Shown one piece after another: positions 9,476-20,107 of a DNA stretch of 64,000 nucleotides. The first letter of the stretch is position 1. Each line of letters begins with the position of its first letter. The stretch comes from Schmidtea polychroa. Lineage: Eukaryota. The DNA lies in assembly GCA_044892525.1 (NCBI GenBank), contig CM097885.1, positions 15,688,001-15,752,000 of the forward strand, written 5' to 3'. Under the pieces are notes generated by a model. It was not told the DNA's origin. It saw only the letters and a list, made by a program, of their open reading frames with translations, and did not search any database. The position numbers and the translations under genes were made by a program.

Positions 9476-10353
9476 TGTTTCGACCAGTCAGAGGGGGATT
9501 TATTCGGTTTCTTTTTCTATCGCGTCTGTGTGCGCGGTCTGGTTAGACCGAATATTGTTGGTGTGCGCACACAGACGCGAGCAATGGATTGTTGTTTGGA
9601 AGTAGGTTTTGATGTAATTTTTTATTGAATTGATTTTTGATGTATTTTAATTAGAAATTCGAGATTTGAATGGATTGTTTTGTGGTTTAAAAAAGGTAAA
9701 ATTCTGGAAGGGAGGAAACCAGTTTTGTTTATTGAAATAAGTTTTGGAATCGAAATGTTTGAAGAAGAAGATGTTGATTACAAATTTATTAAAGCTTATG
9801 ATGTTCCAAACCAAGATCTTATTTCTTATTTCGATGAAACCCGTGAATTCATTGAAAATGGCAGAAAATTTGGTGGAGTATTGGTTCACTGTCTTGCTGG
9901 AAGATCAAGAAGTGGAATTATTTTGACGGCTTATTTAATGAAACATTTTAAAGTTGGTCCAAACGATGCGATTGAGACAATTAAGGAAAAGTCATTTATA
10001 TGTCCAAATGATGGATTCATGAAACAATTAAAGATATATTTCAACATGAATTGCAGTGATGAAATCAACAAATGCGCAAATACAGTTTCTCAAGCTCAAT
10101 TTAAGTTATCAGCATCTTCAAAAGATTTAGTTCAATTCAAATGTAGAAAGTGTCGATTTTTATTATTCGACAATTCAAGTGTTGTTGAGCACAGTAAAAT
10201 GAAAGCTTCGAAAGCAATAAATGAAAGCACAATTTGCAATGAGGAAATACTTATCGAAGCTCTTCCTTGGATTGATAGCAGCAATGCAGACGGGGAAATG
10301 AAAATGACAGTGTTAAAGAATAAAATTTTAATGATTTATTTGGATCTTATTCA
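9476..10353 (+). repeat. 5' LTR (878 bp, TG...CA) encoding a DUSP12-like domain
   Basis: Starts TGTTTCGACC and ends CTTATTCA immediately before the PBS. AATAAA at 10319-10324. Confidence 0.92.
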
Positions 10354-13300
10354 TGGTAGCAGAGCGTGGTTCCGGCTAGCCAGCCGGAACAAGGTAATAG
10401 ATGATTATATAATGTATTTTTTGTATTTACGTGATTATTTTGTGAATTATTTTATGAATTATAATATGTGTTATATTTTTATTGTTGAAACATTTCCCCT
10501 AGGGCCTGCCCTCCCTAACCCCATTAGAGGTGGATTGGCGCGGGTATTTGTCAAAATAATAACAGGGAAGACAATTACTCTCGAAGTTGAATCTAGTGAC
10601 ACGATAGAAAATGTTAATGCGAAAATACAAGATAAAGAGGGTAGTCCACCTGACCAGCAACGATTAATTTGCGCGGGAAAACCATTAGAAGATGAGCGAA
10701 CATTATCTGATTATAATATTCAAAAGGAGTCTACTTTGCGTTTAGTTTTGCGATTGAGGGGTGGAATGCAAATATTCGTGAAGACACTGACAGGAAAAAC
10801 AATAACTTTGGAAGTAGAATCAAGTGATACTATTGAGAATGTAAAGGCTAAAATTCAAGAAAAAGAAGGGATACCCCCAGGGCGACAAAGACTTAATTTT
10901 GCCGGGAAAGTATTAAAAGATGGCCTAACGTTGTTAGATTATAACGTTAGGAAAGAAGCCACGGTACATCTGGTTTTGGGGCTGGCAGGGGGAAGTCCAG
11001 TATCAGATGCGGAGTTCGAGGCGGGGTACAAGAGACGAACCGGGTGGAAGATTTCGTTAGGGCGTCTACGTAACCGGGCCTTAGGAGATGGATCGGACCC
11101 TGGGGAAGATCAAAGGAGAATGGAGGCTTACGAAGATATGTATGAGGAAGTCATAAACGAATTGGAGGACCTGAGGAATAATGCTCGGGAGTTAGGGCGG
11201 GAGAAAGAAGAAAAGGAAATTGAGGCAGATCTGAAACGGTTAGAAGCGGATTTCAGCAGAATCGGCGATCTGGTCCTCACGCAGAAGGAAGAGAGTTTTA
11301 GAGTAGAGTCGCGGAAGGGCACAGAAAAATCATTTAGGAGCGAAGAGCCCAATGAGAAACAGAAGTGCATAATGGGTTTGAAACCCTTGCAGCTGCCGAT
11401 CTTTAATGGAAAGGTAATAGAATATCCTGGATGGAGGGCAATTGTGAGAGCCTGCATCGAGGACACGGATGAGCCGAGTGAAAGAAAGTACTTGTACCTG
11501 AGACAGTACTTGGAAGGGAAGCCGCTGCAATTAATTGCCTATATTGGATATGGCTCGCAGGCTTTCGAGGCGGCGATAAAATTACTTGATGAAAGGTATG
11601 GGGGACCAGAAAGATCCTATTCCATGATGCTGGATGCGGTGCAGAGGTTCTTCCCAGTGAGGCTCAACGTCTTGGAGGACCTAGAGCGGTTTGAAGAGCT
11701 GCTAGGAAACCTCATCCTGAATTTCAAGGATCAGAAGAGGGAAGGCGAGTTAAACAACGGGATGTTGTATCACCAACTGCTGAAGAAGCTGCCAGAGACC
11801 ATGCTGATTCAGTGGTCACGCCATTGTGATTCGGGGAGAGAGGGAAATGTGCAAACGCTAGCCGAGTGGATCAAAACGGAAGCTAATAGGCATCGGCAAG
11901 CAATGAGCATTCTGTTTGGAGAAGGGCGGGCAAAAGGTAGAACTGTCGCCCCAACAACTAACTTCGGAAATGCGAATAGGGGCACGAAGTTAACGGATAG
12001 TAGGCGCAAGATAGAGGTTAGCAGTGCTCGAAAAAAGGAACCAATTTGTGTGAAATGTGGTTCAGAACATTATTTAAATCAATGCTCAGAGTTCCTAAAG
12101 CTGACTGTTAAGGAACGAAATGAGTTTGTGACCAAGAAGCGGCTTTGTTACAATTGTCTTACAACAGCTCACATGGTTAGAGAATGCGAAAAACCGAGCT
12201 TTTGTAAGGACAGAGATTGTACTCGAAAGCATCACAATTTGCTCCATGGCTCAGAGAACAAAGTTGATGGAGATCAAGAGCCGAGCAATGAGAACACATC
12301 AATGATGACGGTTCAAGATACACAGAGGAAGAAGATGTATGTTCCTTTACGAACGATTACAGCAAAGTTGATTAATAAAGGAAAGGCGGTCAAGATCAAC
12401 GCATTGCTAGACGACGCTAGCAATGTTAGCTATATTAGCGATTGGGCGGCGCAAGAACTGGGGTTGGGAGGACAGTGGCAAAGCACTCCAGTTGGCGTGA
12501 TTGGTGGACAATCACAAATGTTGGAAACGAAGCCCGTGACGCTATTATTGGCAAGCAACAATAACAATTTAAAGGTAAATTTGAACGTCCTGGTGGTAAA
12601 AAAGGTCACTGGAGACCTGGGAATGTGTAACTGGAGGAAGTTATCGGCGAAATGGAAGCATCTGCGATATATAAACTTCCCGGTTATGAATACAAGGACG
12701 CAGATTGATGTATTGATTGGTTCTGATTACCCATATCTACATCGATCTATTTGCGAAGTAACAGGAGCAAAGCATGAACCAATTGCAAGGTTGACGCCCC
12801 TCGGATGGACATGTCTTGGTAGGATTGCAAGAAATCAAGCTCCAAGATGTTCGCATTTGGCTCAGAGTTATTTTGCGGTAACGGAAATGTTAAACGACGG
12901 AGAAATGATTATTCATGATGTAGATAATTCTGAAGAAATGGATTATATTAAAGAATGGGATAAAAACGATGAAACACATGAAAACAAAAAGGCTAGCGAA
13001 GATGGAGATAGGGAAAGCAATGAATGTGAGAATTTACAATCTAGCGATATTATAAATCAAGATGGAATAGAGCAAAATCGAGTCAATGAGAACGAGAATA
13101 ATTATTCTGAATTTGTAAAAAGTAATACTGAACTATTAGGCAAAGCTTTTGATAAAGGAGACCAAGTTACAGCAGATGAGTTAGAAAATATTGTCAAAAG
13201 TCACAATCAAGAAGAAAATTTTGAAAGTAAATATGATGAAACTGAAGTAGATGTGTCAGACAAGAATGAAAATTATAATAGTCATGTAGGCACAGAGGTT

Positions 13301-13828
13301 GTCGACATTAATGTTATCGAAAGACCGAATTCTTTGGTAGAAGATAATTTTCAAAACATGGAAGACGTAGTTAATGTTCAAACGGATTCTGCTTCTTCAG
13401 AAAATCATTTAGAAACTGATCGAATTATGCCAGATTCTGAGAGCAATGACAGTGATCTTAGAGTCGATATTGGTAAAGATCATACATCCGACACAGCTAA
13501 AGATTCTGAACAAAATACATTCACTCAACCAACGTCTGCTTTAGATGATATCATTGAAGACTATTCACCTGGTTCCCCTTTATTAAATGAGATGCAACAG
13601 GGAAAAGTGGGGACTATTGAATTGGTGAAACATGCAGGAAGGATAATGGAGATATTGCAGCGAAACAGAATGAAAAGTGGCAGGGGCTTGGTCGAGTATG
13701 GCGATGGTGGGAGGAGAATCCACCATGATGTATCCAGAAAAGTGCGTGGTGCGGTGGCCTTTACCATAGCAAGATGGGTGTGTGAGGGGTATTGGAGAGA
13801 GGCAAAAGGAAAGGTTCCCCTGAAGTAA
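9755..13828 (+). CDS. Polyprotein: DUSP12-like phosphatase, 2x ubiquitin, BEL/Pao Gag, aspartic protease, acidic tail
   Basis: First ATG at 9755 within the 1382-codon [13 protein letters not shown] catalytic loop, [21 protein letters not shown] and IEALPW (DUSP12 Zn-domain start). Ubiquitins at 10538-10765 and 10766-10993. LPIFNG..YPGW Gag motif, three Cys/His knuckles, protease LLDDAS..DVLIGSD..TPLGW. Confidence 0.9.
10354..10371 (+). promoter_or_regulatory. Primer-binding site, tRNA-iMet type
   Basis: TGGTAGCAGAGCGTGGTT directly after the LTR CA; complementary to the animal initiator tRNA 3' end (..CTCTGCTACCA). Confidence 0.85.
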
Positions 13829-18872: not shown

Positions 18873-19235
18873 TATCTTTTCTTGTTTGTTTATTTATGAT
18901 TCTTTCAGTTTGTTTCACGATTTTTTCTTCTTTCTGTTTTGTTTCTTGACATTTTGATTTTTGTGTCGCTTGTTTTTCTTACCAAAATTTAACCGTTAAT
19001 TTTAAGGGCTAAAGGTCAGTGTCAATGTATACCTTGATGTAAATAAATAAATATTACAATATTTGTTTACTATTATCAAGATTTAACTACAAATGGATTA
19101 GCATGAATAATAATTTTTCAACTTCCTATAATTTCGTAAACATTATATTTATTAAAAAACTTGACCTATTGTGGATAACTCATGGTGCATGTGATGGTGG
19201 ATGTATAATAAATATTAATAATAAATATTAATGAT

Positions 19236-20107
19236 TGTTTCAGCCGATTTTGGATGATTTTTTTTGTATCGCGTCTGTGTGCGCACACAGACGCGAGTAA
19301 TAGGTAATTTATATTTTATATGTTATAAGTTATGTTTCTGTAGTAATAGATTTAAATCGATCTTTAATTTGTGGAATTTGGTTTTGATGGTTTGTTAATG
19401 GAAGAGCAGGAATCGTTTGTTTGAACTGGTAAATTGTGTAGAAATTTTGGATTTTTGTTTTTTAGTTGAAACATGGAAGAAAATGAAGGCCTGAAATGTC
19501 GTCTTCCAATGAGCAATATAGCGAAGATTATTTTCTCACCTGAAGGGAGATCATTCCAAGTCGAATATGCATTTAAGGCAATTGCATTAGATGGATTGCT
19601 TTCCGTTGGTATTCGAGGCAATAATGGTGGTGTAGTAGCTACACAAAGAAAAGTTCCAGATAAAATGATTGAGAAGAGTTCAGCTACAAGATTGTTTAAT
19701 ATTACTGAAAGTACTGAATGGGTTATGACTGATATGATCCCTGATTGTCGATCTCAAACATGTCGTGCACAAATGGAAGCAGATCGATTTAAATATAAAA
19801 ATGGATATGAAATGCCTTGTGACATAACATGTCGTTGTATCGCGGATATTAATCAGCTCTACACCCAATCGGCTGAGATGCGACCATTAGGTTTATCAAT
19901 GATAGCATTATCTTATGATATTGAAATGGATAAACCGTTATTATTCAAAACTGACTCCAGTGGCTTTGTAACTGGACATCGAGCTGTTGCAGTTGGTGGG
20001 AAGCAATTGGAGGCTAAAAGTTATTTGGAAAAGAAACTACGTAAAAATAGAGCGTGTGAAACTATCAAATACATAAAAATCTTTTTGACGTGTTTTAGAC
20101 GAAAACA
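19236..20107 (+). mobile_element. Solo LTR (872 bp) related to the DUSP12 LTR, carrying a proteasome alpha ORF
   Basis: TGTTT...AAACA ends; 6-bp target-site duplication AATGAT (19230-19235 and 20108-20113); shared TCGCGTCTGTGTGCGC/GCGCACACAGACGCGA palindrome; CATAAA 30 nt from the end. Confidence 0.82.

What the first reader, a model, noticed from the sequence alone, without database searches (positions are those of the whole stretch)
9476..20107. Candidate BEL/Pao family using the LTR as an exchangeable host-gene cassette (DUSP12 versus PSMA6)
Seen: two ~875-bp LTR types share a TGTTTC start, a CA end, the same GC-rich inverted repeat and an (A/C)ATAAA 29-30 nt from the end. Each holds a ~600-nt intronless host ORF that starts at +240 to +280 and has no stop before the LTR end, yet the cargo genes are unrelated. 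Known: LTR-encoded genes are rare (MMTV sag, HIV nef overlap) and captured genes usually lie internally. Inference: a lineage that repeatedly swaps host mRNA fragments into a long R region, translates them ahead of Gag and leaves them behind as solo LTRs. I do not know of a description of this.
Basis: partly seen in the sequence, partly recalled or inferred. Interest (0 to 1): 0.95.

Follow-up and report, generated by a model that had tools for sequence, protein, structure and literature searches.

The report
Retrotransposon LTRs carrying host gene mosaics
A young family of BEL/Pao retrotransposons in a flatworm-like animal genome carries patchworks of spliced host gene pieces inside its terminal repeats, read in one frame into a ubiquitin-Gag fusion, an arrangement I could not find described.

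Summary
Window 9476-14738 is a non-autonomous BEL/Pao element. It has 878-bp LTRs, an 18-nt PBS matching an initiator-type tRNA-Met, and a PPT. Window 19236-20107 is a solo LTR with a flanking direct repeat.

Across the genome the LTR-start motif occurs 1,320 times and the PBS junction 298 times. LTRs share about 115 nt at the 5' end and about 60 nt at the 3' end. The middle is an in-frame patchwork of host cDNA pieces: DSPc, PSMA6, Rab-type Ras, CCT, LIM, EAP30, coatomer and unidentified pieces.

The PSMA6 piece lacks two introns of the host gene. In 19 of 30 sampled 5' junctions one frame stays open from the LTR through the PBS into ubiquitin and Gag. The other two frames close within 10 codons.

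Cargo evolves nearly neutrally (dN/dS about 0.8) yet lacks stops (2 seen, 15.4 expected). Ubiquitin (0.32) is as constrained as Gag (0.30). Its Gly-Gly end before Gag is kept in 18 of 18 readable copies.

Best reading: cargo-ubiquitin-Gag is one polyprotein, and host deubiquitinases probably free Gag. Transcript ends, translation and cleavage are untested.

The parts
9476..10353 (+). 5' LTR of element A (878 bp, TG...CA); the 5' flank is (ATT)n ending in ATTAT
   Evidence: Direct repeat with 13871-14738, 99.3% over 846 nt. Length 878 bp by script.
9520..9580 (+). GC-rich palindrome with 16-nt arms at 9520-9535 and 9565-9580, and an inner small hairpin in the loop
   Evidence: The 3' LTR copy folds at -37.6 kcal/mol, z -4.8. 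The arm occurs 4,979 times in the genome counting both strands.
9755..10353 (+). LTR-encoded part of the long ORF, from ATG 9755. The phosphatase (DSPc, DUSP12-like) cDNA piece is about 9767-10293. The last ~60 nt are the shared LTR tail.
   Evidence: Pfam DSPc 7.3e-21, profile positions 37-131 of 133. Contigs of runs X1/X2 leave the element at 9767 and 10293. The tail is shared with other LTR types.
10319..10324 (+). AATAAA poly(A)-signal-like hexamer, 29 nt before the LTR end, read in frame as Asn-Lys
   Evidence: Sequence. '(E/N)NK' is seen just before the PBS frame in other copies.
10354..10371 (+). Primer binding site TGGTAGCAGAGCGTGGTT
   Evidence: 18-nt complement of the 3' end (+CCA) of a 72-nt tRNA gene with a CAT anticodon found in the genome. 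The 30-mer junction occurs at 298 places.
10369..10537 (+). Post-PBS hairpin (TTCCGGCT/AGCCGGAA), 5' splice-site-like AAG|GTAATA at 10393/10394, and an AT-rich spacer that is variable but kept open
   Evidence: Fold -17.9 kcal/mol, z -2.7. Spacer dN/dS 0.74. No intron-less copies found.
10538..10993 (+). Two ubiquitin units: Ub1 10538-10765 ending LRLRGG, Ub2 10766-10993 ending GLAGG
   Evidence: Pfam ubiquitin 2.4e-53, two stretches. The Gag-proximal GG is kept in 18 of 18 readable copies.
10994..12891 (+). Gag: DUF1759 at 11402-11824, two CCHC knuckles at about 12047-12190, and a protease-like remnant not recognised by Pfam
   Evidence: Pfam DUF1759 4.5e-08; sequence.
12892..13590 (+). Acidic insert standing where RT, RNase H and integrase should be; a piece of another sequence context, probably a host transcript
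   Evidence: 2.2-2.3-kb contigs of runs X1/X2 cover 12892-13096 and 13142-13590 and run on into unlike sequence at both ends. No RT or integrase Pfam hit in the window ORF.
13591..13828 (+). Tail of the 1395-codon open frame, ending at the stop codon 13826-13828
13851..13870 (+). Polypurine tract GGGATCAAGGAGGGGGGAAA abutting the 3' LTR
   Evidence: Sequence. The PPT plus LTR-start 30-mer occurs at 119 places.
13871..14738 (+). 3' LTR of element A, with the same cargo. It keeps a 23-nt hairpin arm that the 5' LTR lacks and has lost its last ~25 nt at the (ATT)n tract.
   Evidence: Paralogous copies L032 and L035 keep the full end (...TTATTCA then ATTAT).
19236..20107 (+). Solo LTR (unit C), 872 bp. 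Palindrome at 19269-19296, ATG at 19473, PSMA6 cDNA piece at 19512-20057, CATAAA at 20072-20077. Flanked by AATGAT at 19230-19235 and 20108-20113.
   Evidence: 85-93% amino-acid identity to the exons of the host PSMA6 gene L093, with no introns.

Best explanation
Element A is a non-autonomous member, and unit C a solo LTR, of a young BEL/Pao LTR-retrotransposon family.

SHOWN
- The LTR has three parts: a conserved head of about 115 nt (TGTTTCGACC, a hairpin, the GC-rich palindrome) followed by a variable C-poor leader; a variable middle; and a conserved tail of about 60 nt holding AATAAA.
- The middle is an in-frame patchwork of pieces of spliced host mRNAs.
- The ORF that starts in the 5' LTR has no stop. 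It reads through AATAAA, the LTR end, the tRNAi-Met PBS and a spacer into one or two ubiquitin units and then Gag.
- Both LTRs of an element carry the same cargo, and 5-bp target-site duplications flank the elements. Cargo-bearing LTRs therefore pass through the normal replication cycle.

INFERRED
1. Transcription starts upstream of the LTR ATG and ends just after AATAAA. The cargo would then lie in a long R region of about 600-750 nt.
2. New mosaics arise when reverse transcriptase switches templates inside this long R, either between co-packaged RNAs with different cargos or onto host mRNAs.
3. The product is a cargo-ubiquitin-Gag polyprotein.
4. Host deubiquitinases cut after the Gly-Gly of the last ubiquitin and free Gag from whatever lies upstream. 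Cargo would then need only to stay open, not to function.
5. Elements like A, which lack RT and integrase, would be copied by full-length relatives.
For: Structure
- LTR pairs are 98.9-100% identical: window 99.3%, L091 99.9%, L092 99.8%, L070/L038 99.7%, L083/L043 99.3%, L074/L040 98.9%, L087/L044 100%.
- 5-bp TSDs are GTAGG, AATAA and AATAT in the 3 pairs where both flanks could be read. The other pairs examined were one tandem pair sharing an LTR, two with the truncated window-type 3' LTR, and one whose 5' LTR start lay outside the locus.
- The PBS is an 18-nt complement of a CAT-anticodon tRNA gene.
- PPT junctions occur at 119 places, PBS junctions at 298, LTR starts at 1,320.
- A family member (L092) has RVT_1, Peptidase_A17, Integrase_H2C2 and DUF5641.

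Cargo
- 26 of 36 LTR ORFs scanned matched a host Pfam family, and 11 of 36 matched two different ones. Families were Ras+Proteasome, Ras+Cpn60_TCP1, LIM+Ras, EAP30+Proteasome, DSPc and Adaptin_N.
- The PSMA6 cargo is contiguous across two intron sites of the host gene. It differs from the host exons at 15 of 255 and 12 of 246 nt.

Frame
- In the frame that reads the PBS as HGSRAW, the median open length is 197 codons upstream and 386.5 codons downstream. In the other two frames it is at most 10 and 8 codons.
- 19 of 30 loci are open for at least 75 codons upstream and 190 downstream (17 of 27 without segmental duplicates); 0 of 30 are in either other frame.

Selection
- Pooled dN/dS for PSMA6 cargo is 0.61 against the host and 0.81 among 17 copies.
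- 2 stops were observed against 15.4 expected when the same number of substitutions is placed at random.
- Within one subfamily, dN/dS is 0.32 for ubiquitin, 0.30 for Gag and 0.74 for the spacer.

Ubiquitin
- Pfam 2.4e-53 in the window and 8e-23 to 3e-22 for the single unit in L091 and L092.
- The ubiquitin next to Gag ends in GG followed by S or N in 18 of 18 readable copies. The inner Ub1-Ub2 joint is GG in only 6 of 8.
- The one outside Gag relative found (P0272, 35% identity) is a complete BEL/Pao polyprotein without ubiquitin.
Against: No RNA or protein evidence could be used. Transcript start, poly(A) site, use of the LTR ATG and cleavage after GG are all untested.

Four upstream ATGs lie between the palindrome and ATG 9755. 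They would hamper scanning if transcription starts at the palindrome.

11 of 30 sampled 5' junctions have a broken frame, mostly inside the AT-rich spacer.

A 5' splice-site-like AAG|GTAATA and a pyrimidine-rich ...CCCCTAG lie around the spacer. If that 109-nt stretch were spliced, the frame would shift, so splicing and read-through cannot both be right for this copy. No intron-less genomic copy was found.

Ubiquitin in these elements is diverged from canonical ubiquitin (by recall: R74C in one subfamily; I44N and LAGG in Ub2 of the window). This might impair recognition by deubiquitinases.

The dN/dS and stop counts use few and related copies, so pairs are not independent. The PSMA6 segments were chosen as ungapped tblastn matches.

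All loci came from the first places listed on contig C1.
Confidence: 0.6

Rival explanations
1. The cargo proteins themselves matter. The element would express truncated host proteins (proteasome alpha-6, CCT, Rab, SNF8/EAP30, coatomer, phosphatase) as dominant-negative or decoy factors that bend host proteostasis or trafficking in its favour. Alternatively the host may have domesticated some copies.
For: ORFs are kept open in most copies. The identified cargos cluster in proteostasis and vesicle traffic: Proteasome, Cpn60_TCP1, ubiquitin, Ras/Rab, EAP30, Adaptin_N. Cargo-ubiquitin released with a free GG end could in principle be conjugated; that N-terminally tagged ubiquitin is conjugation-competent is recalled knowledge.
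Against: dN/dS is 0.6-0.8 for PSMA6 cargo, against about 0.3 for Gag and ubiquitin in the same elements. Domains are truncated and joined mid-domain, for example Proteasome profile positions 21-83 or 60-125 of 189, and Ras 68-108 of 162. 10 of 36 cargos have no Pfam family, and one of them has no detectable homologue.
Confidence: 0.15
2. The host-derived RNA, not the protein, is the point. Essential-gene sequence at the 5' end of the element's RNA would shield it from small-RNA (piRNA) silencing, or would draw small RNAs onto host genes. On this view the open frame is a by-product of having to translate Gag downstream.
For: Cargos are pieces of housekeeping genes at 94-98% nucleotide identity to the host where measured (4/174 to 15/255 differences). 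Planarian LTR elements are heavily targeted by PIWI/piRNA (passages read in PMC8532177).
Against: No small-RNA data were examined. Many cargo copies have drifted to 72-85% amino-acid identity. This would weaken any sequence-specific shield without loss of the open frame.
Confidence: 0.1
3. The cargo lies in U3 and is never read into Gag. The LTR ORF would be a passive passenger, or a 3'-end accessory ORF like MMTV sag, and the open frame across the 5' LTR/PBS would merely reflect the youth of the copies.
For: LTR pairs are 98.9-100% identical, so many copies are young. U3 is the usual place for extra sequence in retroviral LTRs (recalled). Four upstream ATGs precede ATG 9755.
Against: Only one of three frames is open across the junction, by a wide margin (197/386.5 codons against at most 10/8). 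The frame is kept between LTR lineages that differ by 10-28% in protein sequence. Stops are about 8-fold depleted. The LTR ORF has no stop of its own, and AATAAA is always read as Asn-Lys.
Confidence: 0.1
4. Artefact: the pattern comes from segmental duplication or misassembly of one odd locus, not from a transposing family.
For: The window's element and solo LTR are repeated at about 58-kb spacing at least six times on C1, and once on C707, with identical flanks.
Against: Independent insertions with different flanks and their own 5-bp TSDs lie on C1. PPT, PBS and PSMA6 matches lie on C1-C4 and on small contigs. Contigs of four public runs from three studies hold the family.
Confidence: 0.02

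Closest known systems
Transducing (acutely transforming) retroviruses with Gag-onc fusions (recalled knowledge)
   Same: Intron-less host cDNA is captured by recombination during reverse transcription and fused in frame with Gag. The carrier is defective and depends on a helper.
   Different: Here the host sequence sits inside the LTR, upstream of the PBS and Gag. It is a mosaic of several genes, varies from copy to copy in a family of more than a thousand LTRs, and is separated from Gag by ubiquitin.
Gene-fragment capture by plant LTR retrotransposons (Bs1; maize B73 survey, PMC2774510, passages read; review PMC13317346, passages read)
   Same: LTR retrotransposons acquire and amplify host gene fragments. 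Template switching is the proposed route.
   Different: The maize survey reports 425 elements and 189 captures, and no element with fragments from more than one gene. In my sample 11 of 36 LTR ORFs join two host families, the pieces are in the LTR, and they are in frame with Gag.
LTRs rebuilt from foreign sequence: Cassandra TRIMs with 5S rDNA in the LTR (abstract seen) and BARE-2 (passage in PMC13317346)
   Same: Foreign sequence becomes part of the LTR and is copied to both ends.
   Different: In those cases the insert is a non-coding promoter module, not a translated, exchangeable coding mosaic.
Cytopathogenic pestiviruses with host ubiquitin insertions (PMC13517609, passages read). That cellular ubiquitin hydrolases cut after the insert to release NS3 is recalled.
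   Same: One or two host ubiquitin units are captured by RNA recombination, often with other host or viral pieces as a mosaic, directly upstream of a viral protein that must have a free N-terminus.
   Different: Those are RNA viruses and sporadic, short-lived variants. Here the ubiquitin is a fixed, selected part of a retrotransposon lineage (dN/dS 0.32) in two subfamilies.
Yeast Ty1 (recalled knowledge)
   Same: The Gag ORF starts inside the 5' LTR, so the PBS lies within coding sequence. The primer is initiator tRNA-Met.
   Different: Ty1 has only a few tens of coding nucleotides in the LTR, no host cargo and no ubiquitin, and belongs to the copia group.
LTR-encoded accessory ORFs, MMTV sag and HIV nef
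   Same: Coding sequence lies within an LTR.
   Different: Those ORFs lie in U3 at the 3' end, have their own stop and are separate proteins. Here the ORF has no stop and continues into Gag.
BEL/Pao families of planarians ('Flow' superfamily, PMC3118150, passages read) and the planarian giant Gypsy 'Burro' elements with many host-like domains (PMC6431247, passages read)
   Same: BEL/Pao elements are known in Schmidtea. Planarian LTR elements are known to build host-like domains into their polyproteins.
   Different: PMC3118150 has 0 occurrences of 'ubiquitin', and neither paper's read passages mention LTR-borne cargo. Burro's extra domains are internal and fixed, not LTR-borne and variable.

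Membership tests
BEL/Pao LTR retrotransposon | Direct long terminal repeats ending TG...CA | tested here: met
   9476-10353 and 13871-14738, 99.3% identical. Other pairs are 98.9-100% identical.
BEL/Pao LTR retrotransposon | Short target-site duplication | tested here: met
   5-bp TSDs GTAGG, AATAA and AATAT in three independent elements. AATGAT flanks the solo LTR C. For the window's element A it cannot be read, because the flanks are (ATT)n and the 3' end is truncated.
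BEL/Pao LTR retrotransposon | PBS complementary to a tRNA 3' end next to the 5' LTR, and a PPT next to the 3' LTR | tested here: met
   18-nt match to a CAT-anticodon tRNA gene. PPT at 13851-13870. The PBS and PPT junctions occur at 298 and 119 places.
BEL/Pao LTR retrotransposon | Gag of the DUF1759 type | tested here: met
   PF03564 at 4.5e-08 in the window; 4.7e-14 and 1.8e-12 in L092 and L091.
BEL/Pao LTR retrotransposon | Pol with RT, the Pao-specific Peptidase_A17 region, and integrase with DUF5641 | tested here: not met
   Element A has no RT or integrase hit, so it is non-autonomous. Family member L092 has RVT_1 2e-11, Peptidase_A17 1e-46, Integrase_H2C2 and DUF5641 1e-22, in several frames.
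Ubiquitin-fusion precursor cut by deubiquitinases | A recognisable ubiquitin unit ending in Gly-Gly directly before the downstream protein, with the next residue not Pro | tested here: met
   PF00240 at 2.4e-53. GG followed by S or N in 18 of 18 readable copies.
Ubiquitin-fusion precursor cut by deubiquitinases | Actual cleavage after Gly76 | not testable with these tools
   Needs protein work.
Transduced host cDNA (retroviral-type capture) | Insert lacks the introns of the host gene | tested here: met
   For PSMA6, the host gene L093 has two ~40-nt introns inside the stretch that the cargo reads contiguously. Not tested for the other cargos.
U3-encoded accessory ORF (sag/nef type) | Self-contained ORF with its own stop within or near the LTR | tested here: not met
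   No stop before the LTR end. The frame continues into ubiquitin and Gag.
MITE or stand-alone palindromic repeat | The palindrome is itself the mobile unit, with its own TSD and outside any LTR | tested here: not met
   Of 19 sampled places, 9 have the TGTTTCGACC-type LTR start. The others show other LTR-like heads with the same order: start, palindrome, leader, ATG.
Long-R LTR (cargo in R) | Transcription start upstream of the cargo and poly(A) site near the LTR end | not testable with these tools
   Only indirect evidence: AATAAA lies 29-30 nt before the end, and the frame is open from the LTR into Gag. No run on record as RNA was listed.

The most novel reading that the evidence does not exclude
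Ubiquitin serves this retrotransposon lineage as a built-in cleavage adaptor operated by the host. Deubiquitinases cut after its Gly-Gly whatever lies upstream, so Gag is uncoupled from the LTR-encoded N-terminus. The long R region then becomes a free zone where reverse-transcriptase template switching keeps shuffling pieces of host mRNAs in frame.

That would make the family a natural, self-propagating exon shuffler. It has already spread more than 1,500 proteasome-gene fragments through the genome. It would also release cargo-ubiquitin proteins whose free Gly-Gly end could be conjugated to host proteins.
Probability: 0.35. Interest if true: 0.9.

Novelty: new variant of a known kind. Interest (0 to 1): 0.8.

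Why it matters
If the reading holds, it adds a new way for retroelements to carry host sequence: inside the LTR, translated as an expendable N-terminus, with captured ubiquitin as the release device.

- It gives a concrete system in which template switching within a long R region can be read from hundreds of natural mosaics.
- It provides a parallel, in a DNA-integrated element, to the ubiquitin insertions of cytopathogenic pestiviruses.
- It is a large natural source of in-frame exon shuffling.

There is also a practical consequence. More than 1,500 PSMA6-like stretches, plus Rab, CCT, phosphatase and ubiquitin pieces, can mislead gene annotation, RNAi design, read mapping and expression counts for those genes in this animal.

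Tried and rejected
RNA evidence
- The look-up of sequencing runs listed no RNA holder. The four runs laid are contigs of unknown kind. They give no transcript start, end or level, so nothing is claimed on expression.

Splicing
- A search for genomic copies lacking the putative 109-nt spacer intron found 0 matches with up to 3 mismatches. Splicing is neither shown nor excluded.

Ubiquitin-Gag fusions elsewhere
- The exhaustive HMMER search with Ub+Gag was swamped by polyubiquitins. All 150 listed hits have their best stretch in the ubiquitin part, so it was uninformative.
- The word-indexed search with Gag alone gave a single relative without ubiquitin. This is weak evidence of absence.

Identity of cargos
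- A cargo without a Pfam hit (L075) found no homologue among longer proteins.
- PDB matching could not tell DUSP12 from other DUSPs.

tRNA
- ARAGORN found no tRNA in the window. The primer tRNA was found by a structure-based pattern instead, but its locus could not be fetched, so ARAGORN was not run on it.

Whole genome
The census therefore rests on motif counts and on 94 loci, most of them from the first places listed on C1.

Databases and literature
- Repbase and Dfam could not be searched.
- Seven answered literature searches found no description of LTR-borne coding mosaics or of ubiquitin-Gag retrotransposons. Subscription journals and Repbase Reports are not covered.

Earlier notes
- Earlier notes of this scan on the same genome concern Polintons and did not bear on this finding.

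Full report
WHAT IS IN THE WINDOW

Element A runs as follows:
- 5' LTR at 9476-10353 (878 bp, TGTTTCG...TTCA).
- Primer binding site TGGTAGCAGAGCGTGGTT at 10354-10371.
- Internal region to 13850.
- Polypurine tract GGGATCAAGGAGGGGGGAAA at 13851-13870.
- 3' LTR at 13871-14738.

The two LTRs are 99.3% identical over 846 nt, with 5 mismatches and 1 gap. The 5' LTR lacks 23 nt of a hairpin arm. The 3' LTR has lost about its last 25 nt at the (ATT)n tract in which the element sits. Paralogous copies keep the full end, followed by ATTAT.

One frame is open from 9641 to 13828, 1,395 codons. Pfam finds DSPc (7.3e-21), two ubiquitin units (2.4e-53) and the BEL/Pao Gag family DUF1759 (4.5e-08). It finds no RT or integrase. 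Where Pol should be, 12892-13590 is an acidic stretch. Contigs of 2.2-2.3 kb in two public runs continue from both its ends into unrelated sequence, so it is probably a second captured host piece.

Unit C, 19236-20107, has the same kind of start, palindrome, CATAAA 30 nt from its end and CA terminus. AATGAT stands on both sides. Its ORF starts at ATG 19473 and matches Proteasome (1.7e-31) and Proteasome_A_N. A and C share only the palindrome blocks.

IT IS A LARGE, YOUNG FAMILY

The genome has 781 Mb: four contigs reaching at least about 272, 181, 143 and 92 Mb by match coordinates, plus 1,008 others. The best outside matches of the PSMA6 piece are flatworm proteins at 64-68% identity. This fits a planarian, which is an inference from recalled karyotype and genome size.

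Motif counts:
- The palindrome arm occurs 2,444 times forward and 2,535 times reverse, with 0 for the reversed control.
- The LTR-start 19-mer, with at most 1 mismatch, occurs 1,320 times.
- The LTR-end/PBS 30-mer, with at most 2 mismatches, occurs 298 times.
- The PPT/LTR-start 30-mer of the window's subfamily occurs 119 times.

I examined seven PBS/PPT locus pairs:
- Three gave both flanks and showed 5-bp target-site duplications (GTAGG, AATAA, AATAT), with LTR identities of 99.7, 98.9 and 99.3%.
- One is a tandem pair sharing a 100% identical LTR.
- Two are the window-type copy with the truncated 3' LTR.
- In one, the 5' LTR start lay outside the locus.

Two further elements have LTRs 99.9% and 99.8% identical. 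One of them, L092, carries RVT_1, Peptidase_A17 (1e-46), Integrase_H2C2 and DUF5641 behind the LTR ORF, ubiquitin and DUF1759, in several frames. The family is therefore BEL/Pao.

The PBS is the exact 18-nt complement of the 3' end, plus CCA, of a 72-nt tRNA gene with anticodon CAT. From its T loop and anticodon stem I judge it initiator-type, which is recalled knowledge.

The window's element and solo LTR are themselves repeated at about 58-kb spacing with identical flanks. Their adjacency is therefore one locus copied by segmental duplication.

THE LTR MIDDLE IS A MOSAIC OF HOST cDNA

Aligned LTR heads share the first ~115 nt: TGTTTCGACC, a hairpin and the palindrome. A variable, C-poor leader follows, and then the ATG. 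The last ~60 nt, including AATAAA, are also shared. The part between differs from LTR to LTR.

I scanned 36 LTR ORFs with Pfam: 22 downstream of the same PPT and 14 upstream of the same PBS. These were the distinct ones I picked out of 60 loci.
- 26 matched a host family.
- 11 matched two different ones: Ras+Proteasome, Ras+Cpn60_TCP1, LIM+Ras, EAP30+Proteasome.
- Others held DSPc or Adaptin_N alone.
- 10 matched nothing. One of these also found no homologue among longer proteins.

PSMA6-like stretches are especially common. There are 1,562 candidate places; 150 were scored, at 72-100% amino-acid identity to the window's copy and with differing end points such as 1-182, 26-156, 4-159 and 45-175. 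Most listed rows have no stop.

The host PSMA6 gene (L093) has exons separated by introns of about 40 nt. The cargo reads straight across two of these sites. It differs from the host exons at 15 of 255 and 12 of 246 nt. The cargo end points do not coincide with those exon borders.

The maize survey of captured fragments states that no element held pieces of more than one gene (PMC2774510, passage read). This family does so routinely.

THE FRAME RUNS FROM THE LTR INTO UBIQUITIN-GAG

At 30 sampled 5' junctions I measured the open length in each frame:
- In the frame that reads the PBS as HGSRAW, the median is 197 codons upstream and 386.5 downstream. The downstream figure is limited by the locus end at 510.
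- In the other two frames the medians are 10 and 2.5 codons upstream, and 8 and 1 downstream.
- 19 of 30 loci (17 of 27 without three segmental duplicates) are open for at least 75 codons upstream and 190 downstream. None are in either other frame.

The eleven broken copies mostly break in the AT-rich spacer after the PBS.

There are two internal subfamilies: two ubiquitin units as in the window, or one. In both, the ubiquitin next to Gag ends in Gly-Gly, as [10 protein letters not shown] or RLCGG|NDEE. This holds in 18 of 18 copies where the position can be read, of 20 open copies. The inner Ub1-Ub2 joint is GG in 6 of 8 and GV in 2 of 8.

WHAT IS CONSTRAINED

- Nei-Gojobori estimates give pooled dN/dS of 0.61 for PSMA6 cargo against the host exons, and 0.81 among 17 cargo copies.
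- The aligned cargo stretches hold 2 stop codons. Random placement of the same numbers of substitutions gives 15.4.
- Within the one-ubiquitin subfamily (5-6 copies), dN/dS is 0.32 for ubiquitin, 0.30 for Gag and 0.74 for the spacer. For the stretch before ubiquitin it is 1.49, with low dS.

These are small, related samples, and the pairs are not independent. The direction is nonetheless clear. Cargo and spacer must stay open but are otherwise free, whereas ubiquitin is kept like Gag. The only outside Gag relative found (35% identity) is a complete BEL/Pao polyprotein without ubiquitin.

HOW IT MOST LIKELY WORKS

Shown: cargo-bearing LTRs are duplicated to both ends and inserted with TSDs. Cargo differs on one backbone. 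One frame links cargo, PBS, ubiquitin and Gag.

Inferred:
1. Transcription starts before the LTR ATG and ends just after AATAAA, so the cargo would lie in a long R region. The 5' AATAAA must then be bypassed. A consensus-like 5' splice site, AAG|GTAATA, lies 40 nt behind the LTR end. This is the arrangement that suppresses the 5' poly(A) site in HIV-1 (recalled), but that role is speculation here.
2. During minus-strand strong-stop synthesis and transfer across a 600-750-nt R, reverse transcriptase switches between co-packaged RNAs with partly shared cargo, or onto host mRNAs. This would give collinear mosaics.
3. Translation gives cargo-ubiquitin-Gag. Host deubiquitinases process every natural ubiquitin precursor after Gly76 (established knowledge), and here they would release Gag.

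This explains why any in-frame cargo is tolerated, why stops are purged, and why ubiquitin and its GG are conserved.

Points against:
- Four upstream ATGs precede ATG 9755.
- The ubiquitin units are diverged.
- The spacer looks intron-like. Removing 10394-10502 (109 nt) would shift the frame, and no intron-less copy exists.
- No RNA or protein data were usable.

COMPARISON AND NOVELTY

The parts are known:
- Host cDNA capture fused to Gag, in transducing retroviruses.
- Gene fragments in plant LTR elements.
- Foreign modules in LTRs (Cassandra, BARE-2).
- A Gag start inside the LTR and a tRNAi-Met primer (Ty1, recalled).
- Ubiquitin captured in front of a viral protein (cytopathogenic pestiviruses, PMC13517609).

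I did not find the combination in seven answered literature searches. The combination is a coding, multi-gene, copy-to-copy variable mosaic inside the LTR, read through the PBS into a conserved ubiquitin-Gag fusion, in a family of over a thousand LTRs. Repbase and Dfam could not be checked. I rate it a new variant of a known kind, of high interest to people who work on mobile elements and on planarian genomes.

Noticed in passing
window 9476-20107 as a block; genome C1:15.58-16.06 Mb and C707: Element A and solo LTR C recur together with identical flanks at about 58-kb spacing at least six times on C1, and once on small contig C707. This is a tandem segmental duplication, so these are not independent insertions.
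   Followed up: partly
genome C1:79,326,093-79,388,607 and beyond: The primer tRNA gene (72 nt, CAT anticodon) stands in a head-to-tail array with a 454-bp period. The pattern matched 1,214 times in the genome (425 forward, 789 reverse).
   Followed up: no
window 12892-13590: The acidic stretch replacing RT and integrase in element A matches 2.2-2.3-kb contigs of two public runs that continue into unrelated sequence on both sides, with a 45-nt skip and a 12-nt insertion. It is probably a second, internal capture of a host transcript.
   Followed up: partly
window 9040-9475 and 14739-14930; loci L009, L010, L014, L024: Element A sits inside a long (ATT)n microsatellite. Of 12 LTR starts not preceded by a PPT, 4 have at least four perfect AAT/ATT-type units in the 40 nt upstream. 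Two more (L009, L014) show shorter runs in the 30 nt displayed. This was not compared with the genome background.
   Followed up: partly
loci L001, L006, L012, L015, L020, L029: The same palindrome occurs in LTR-like heads with other starts (TGTTTAATTCGA..., TGGTAAATTATGAG...). It is sometimes duplicated in tandem, and is again followed by a leader and an ATG-started ORF. The layout seems common to several LTR lineages.
   Followed up: partly
window 15612-15851: Two tandem copies of a 120-bp AT-rich unit, 98% identical.
   Followed up: no
window 17888-18663, minus strand: Two overlapping open frames of 131 and 172 codons without any Pfam match, followed by T-rich low-complexity sequence. Possibly a decayed gene or another mobile element.
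   Followed up: partly
loci L074 versus L040: The 5' LTR of one element is 155 bp longer than its 3' LTR, through an internal tandem repeat of a PSMA6 segment. Cargo length can therefore change within one element after or during insertion.
   Followed up: no
loci L087, L044, L088 (C1:74.02 Mb): A tandem LTR-internal-LTR-internal arrangement in which two elements share one LTR, 100% identical.
   Followed up: no
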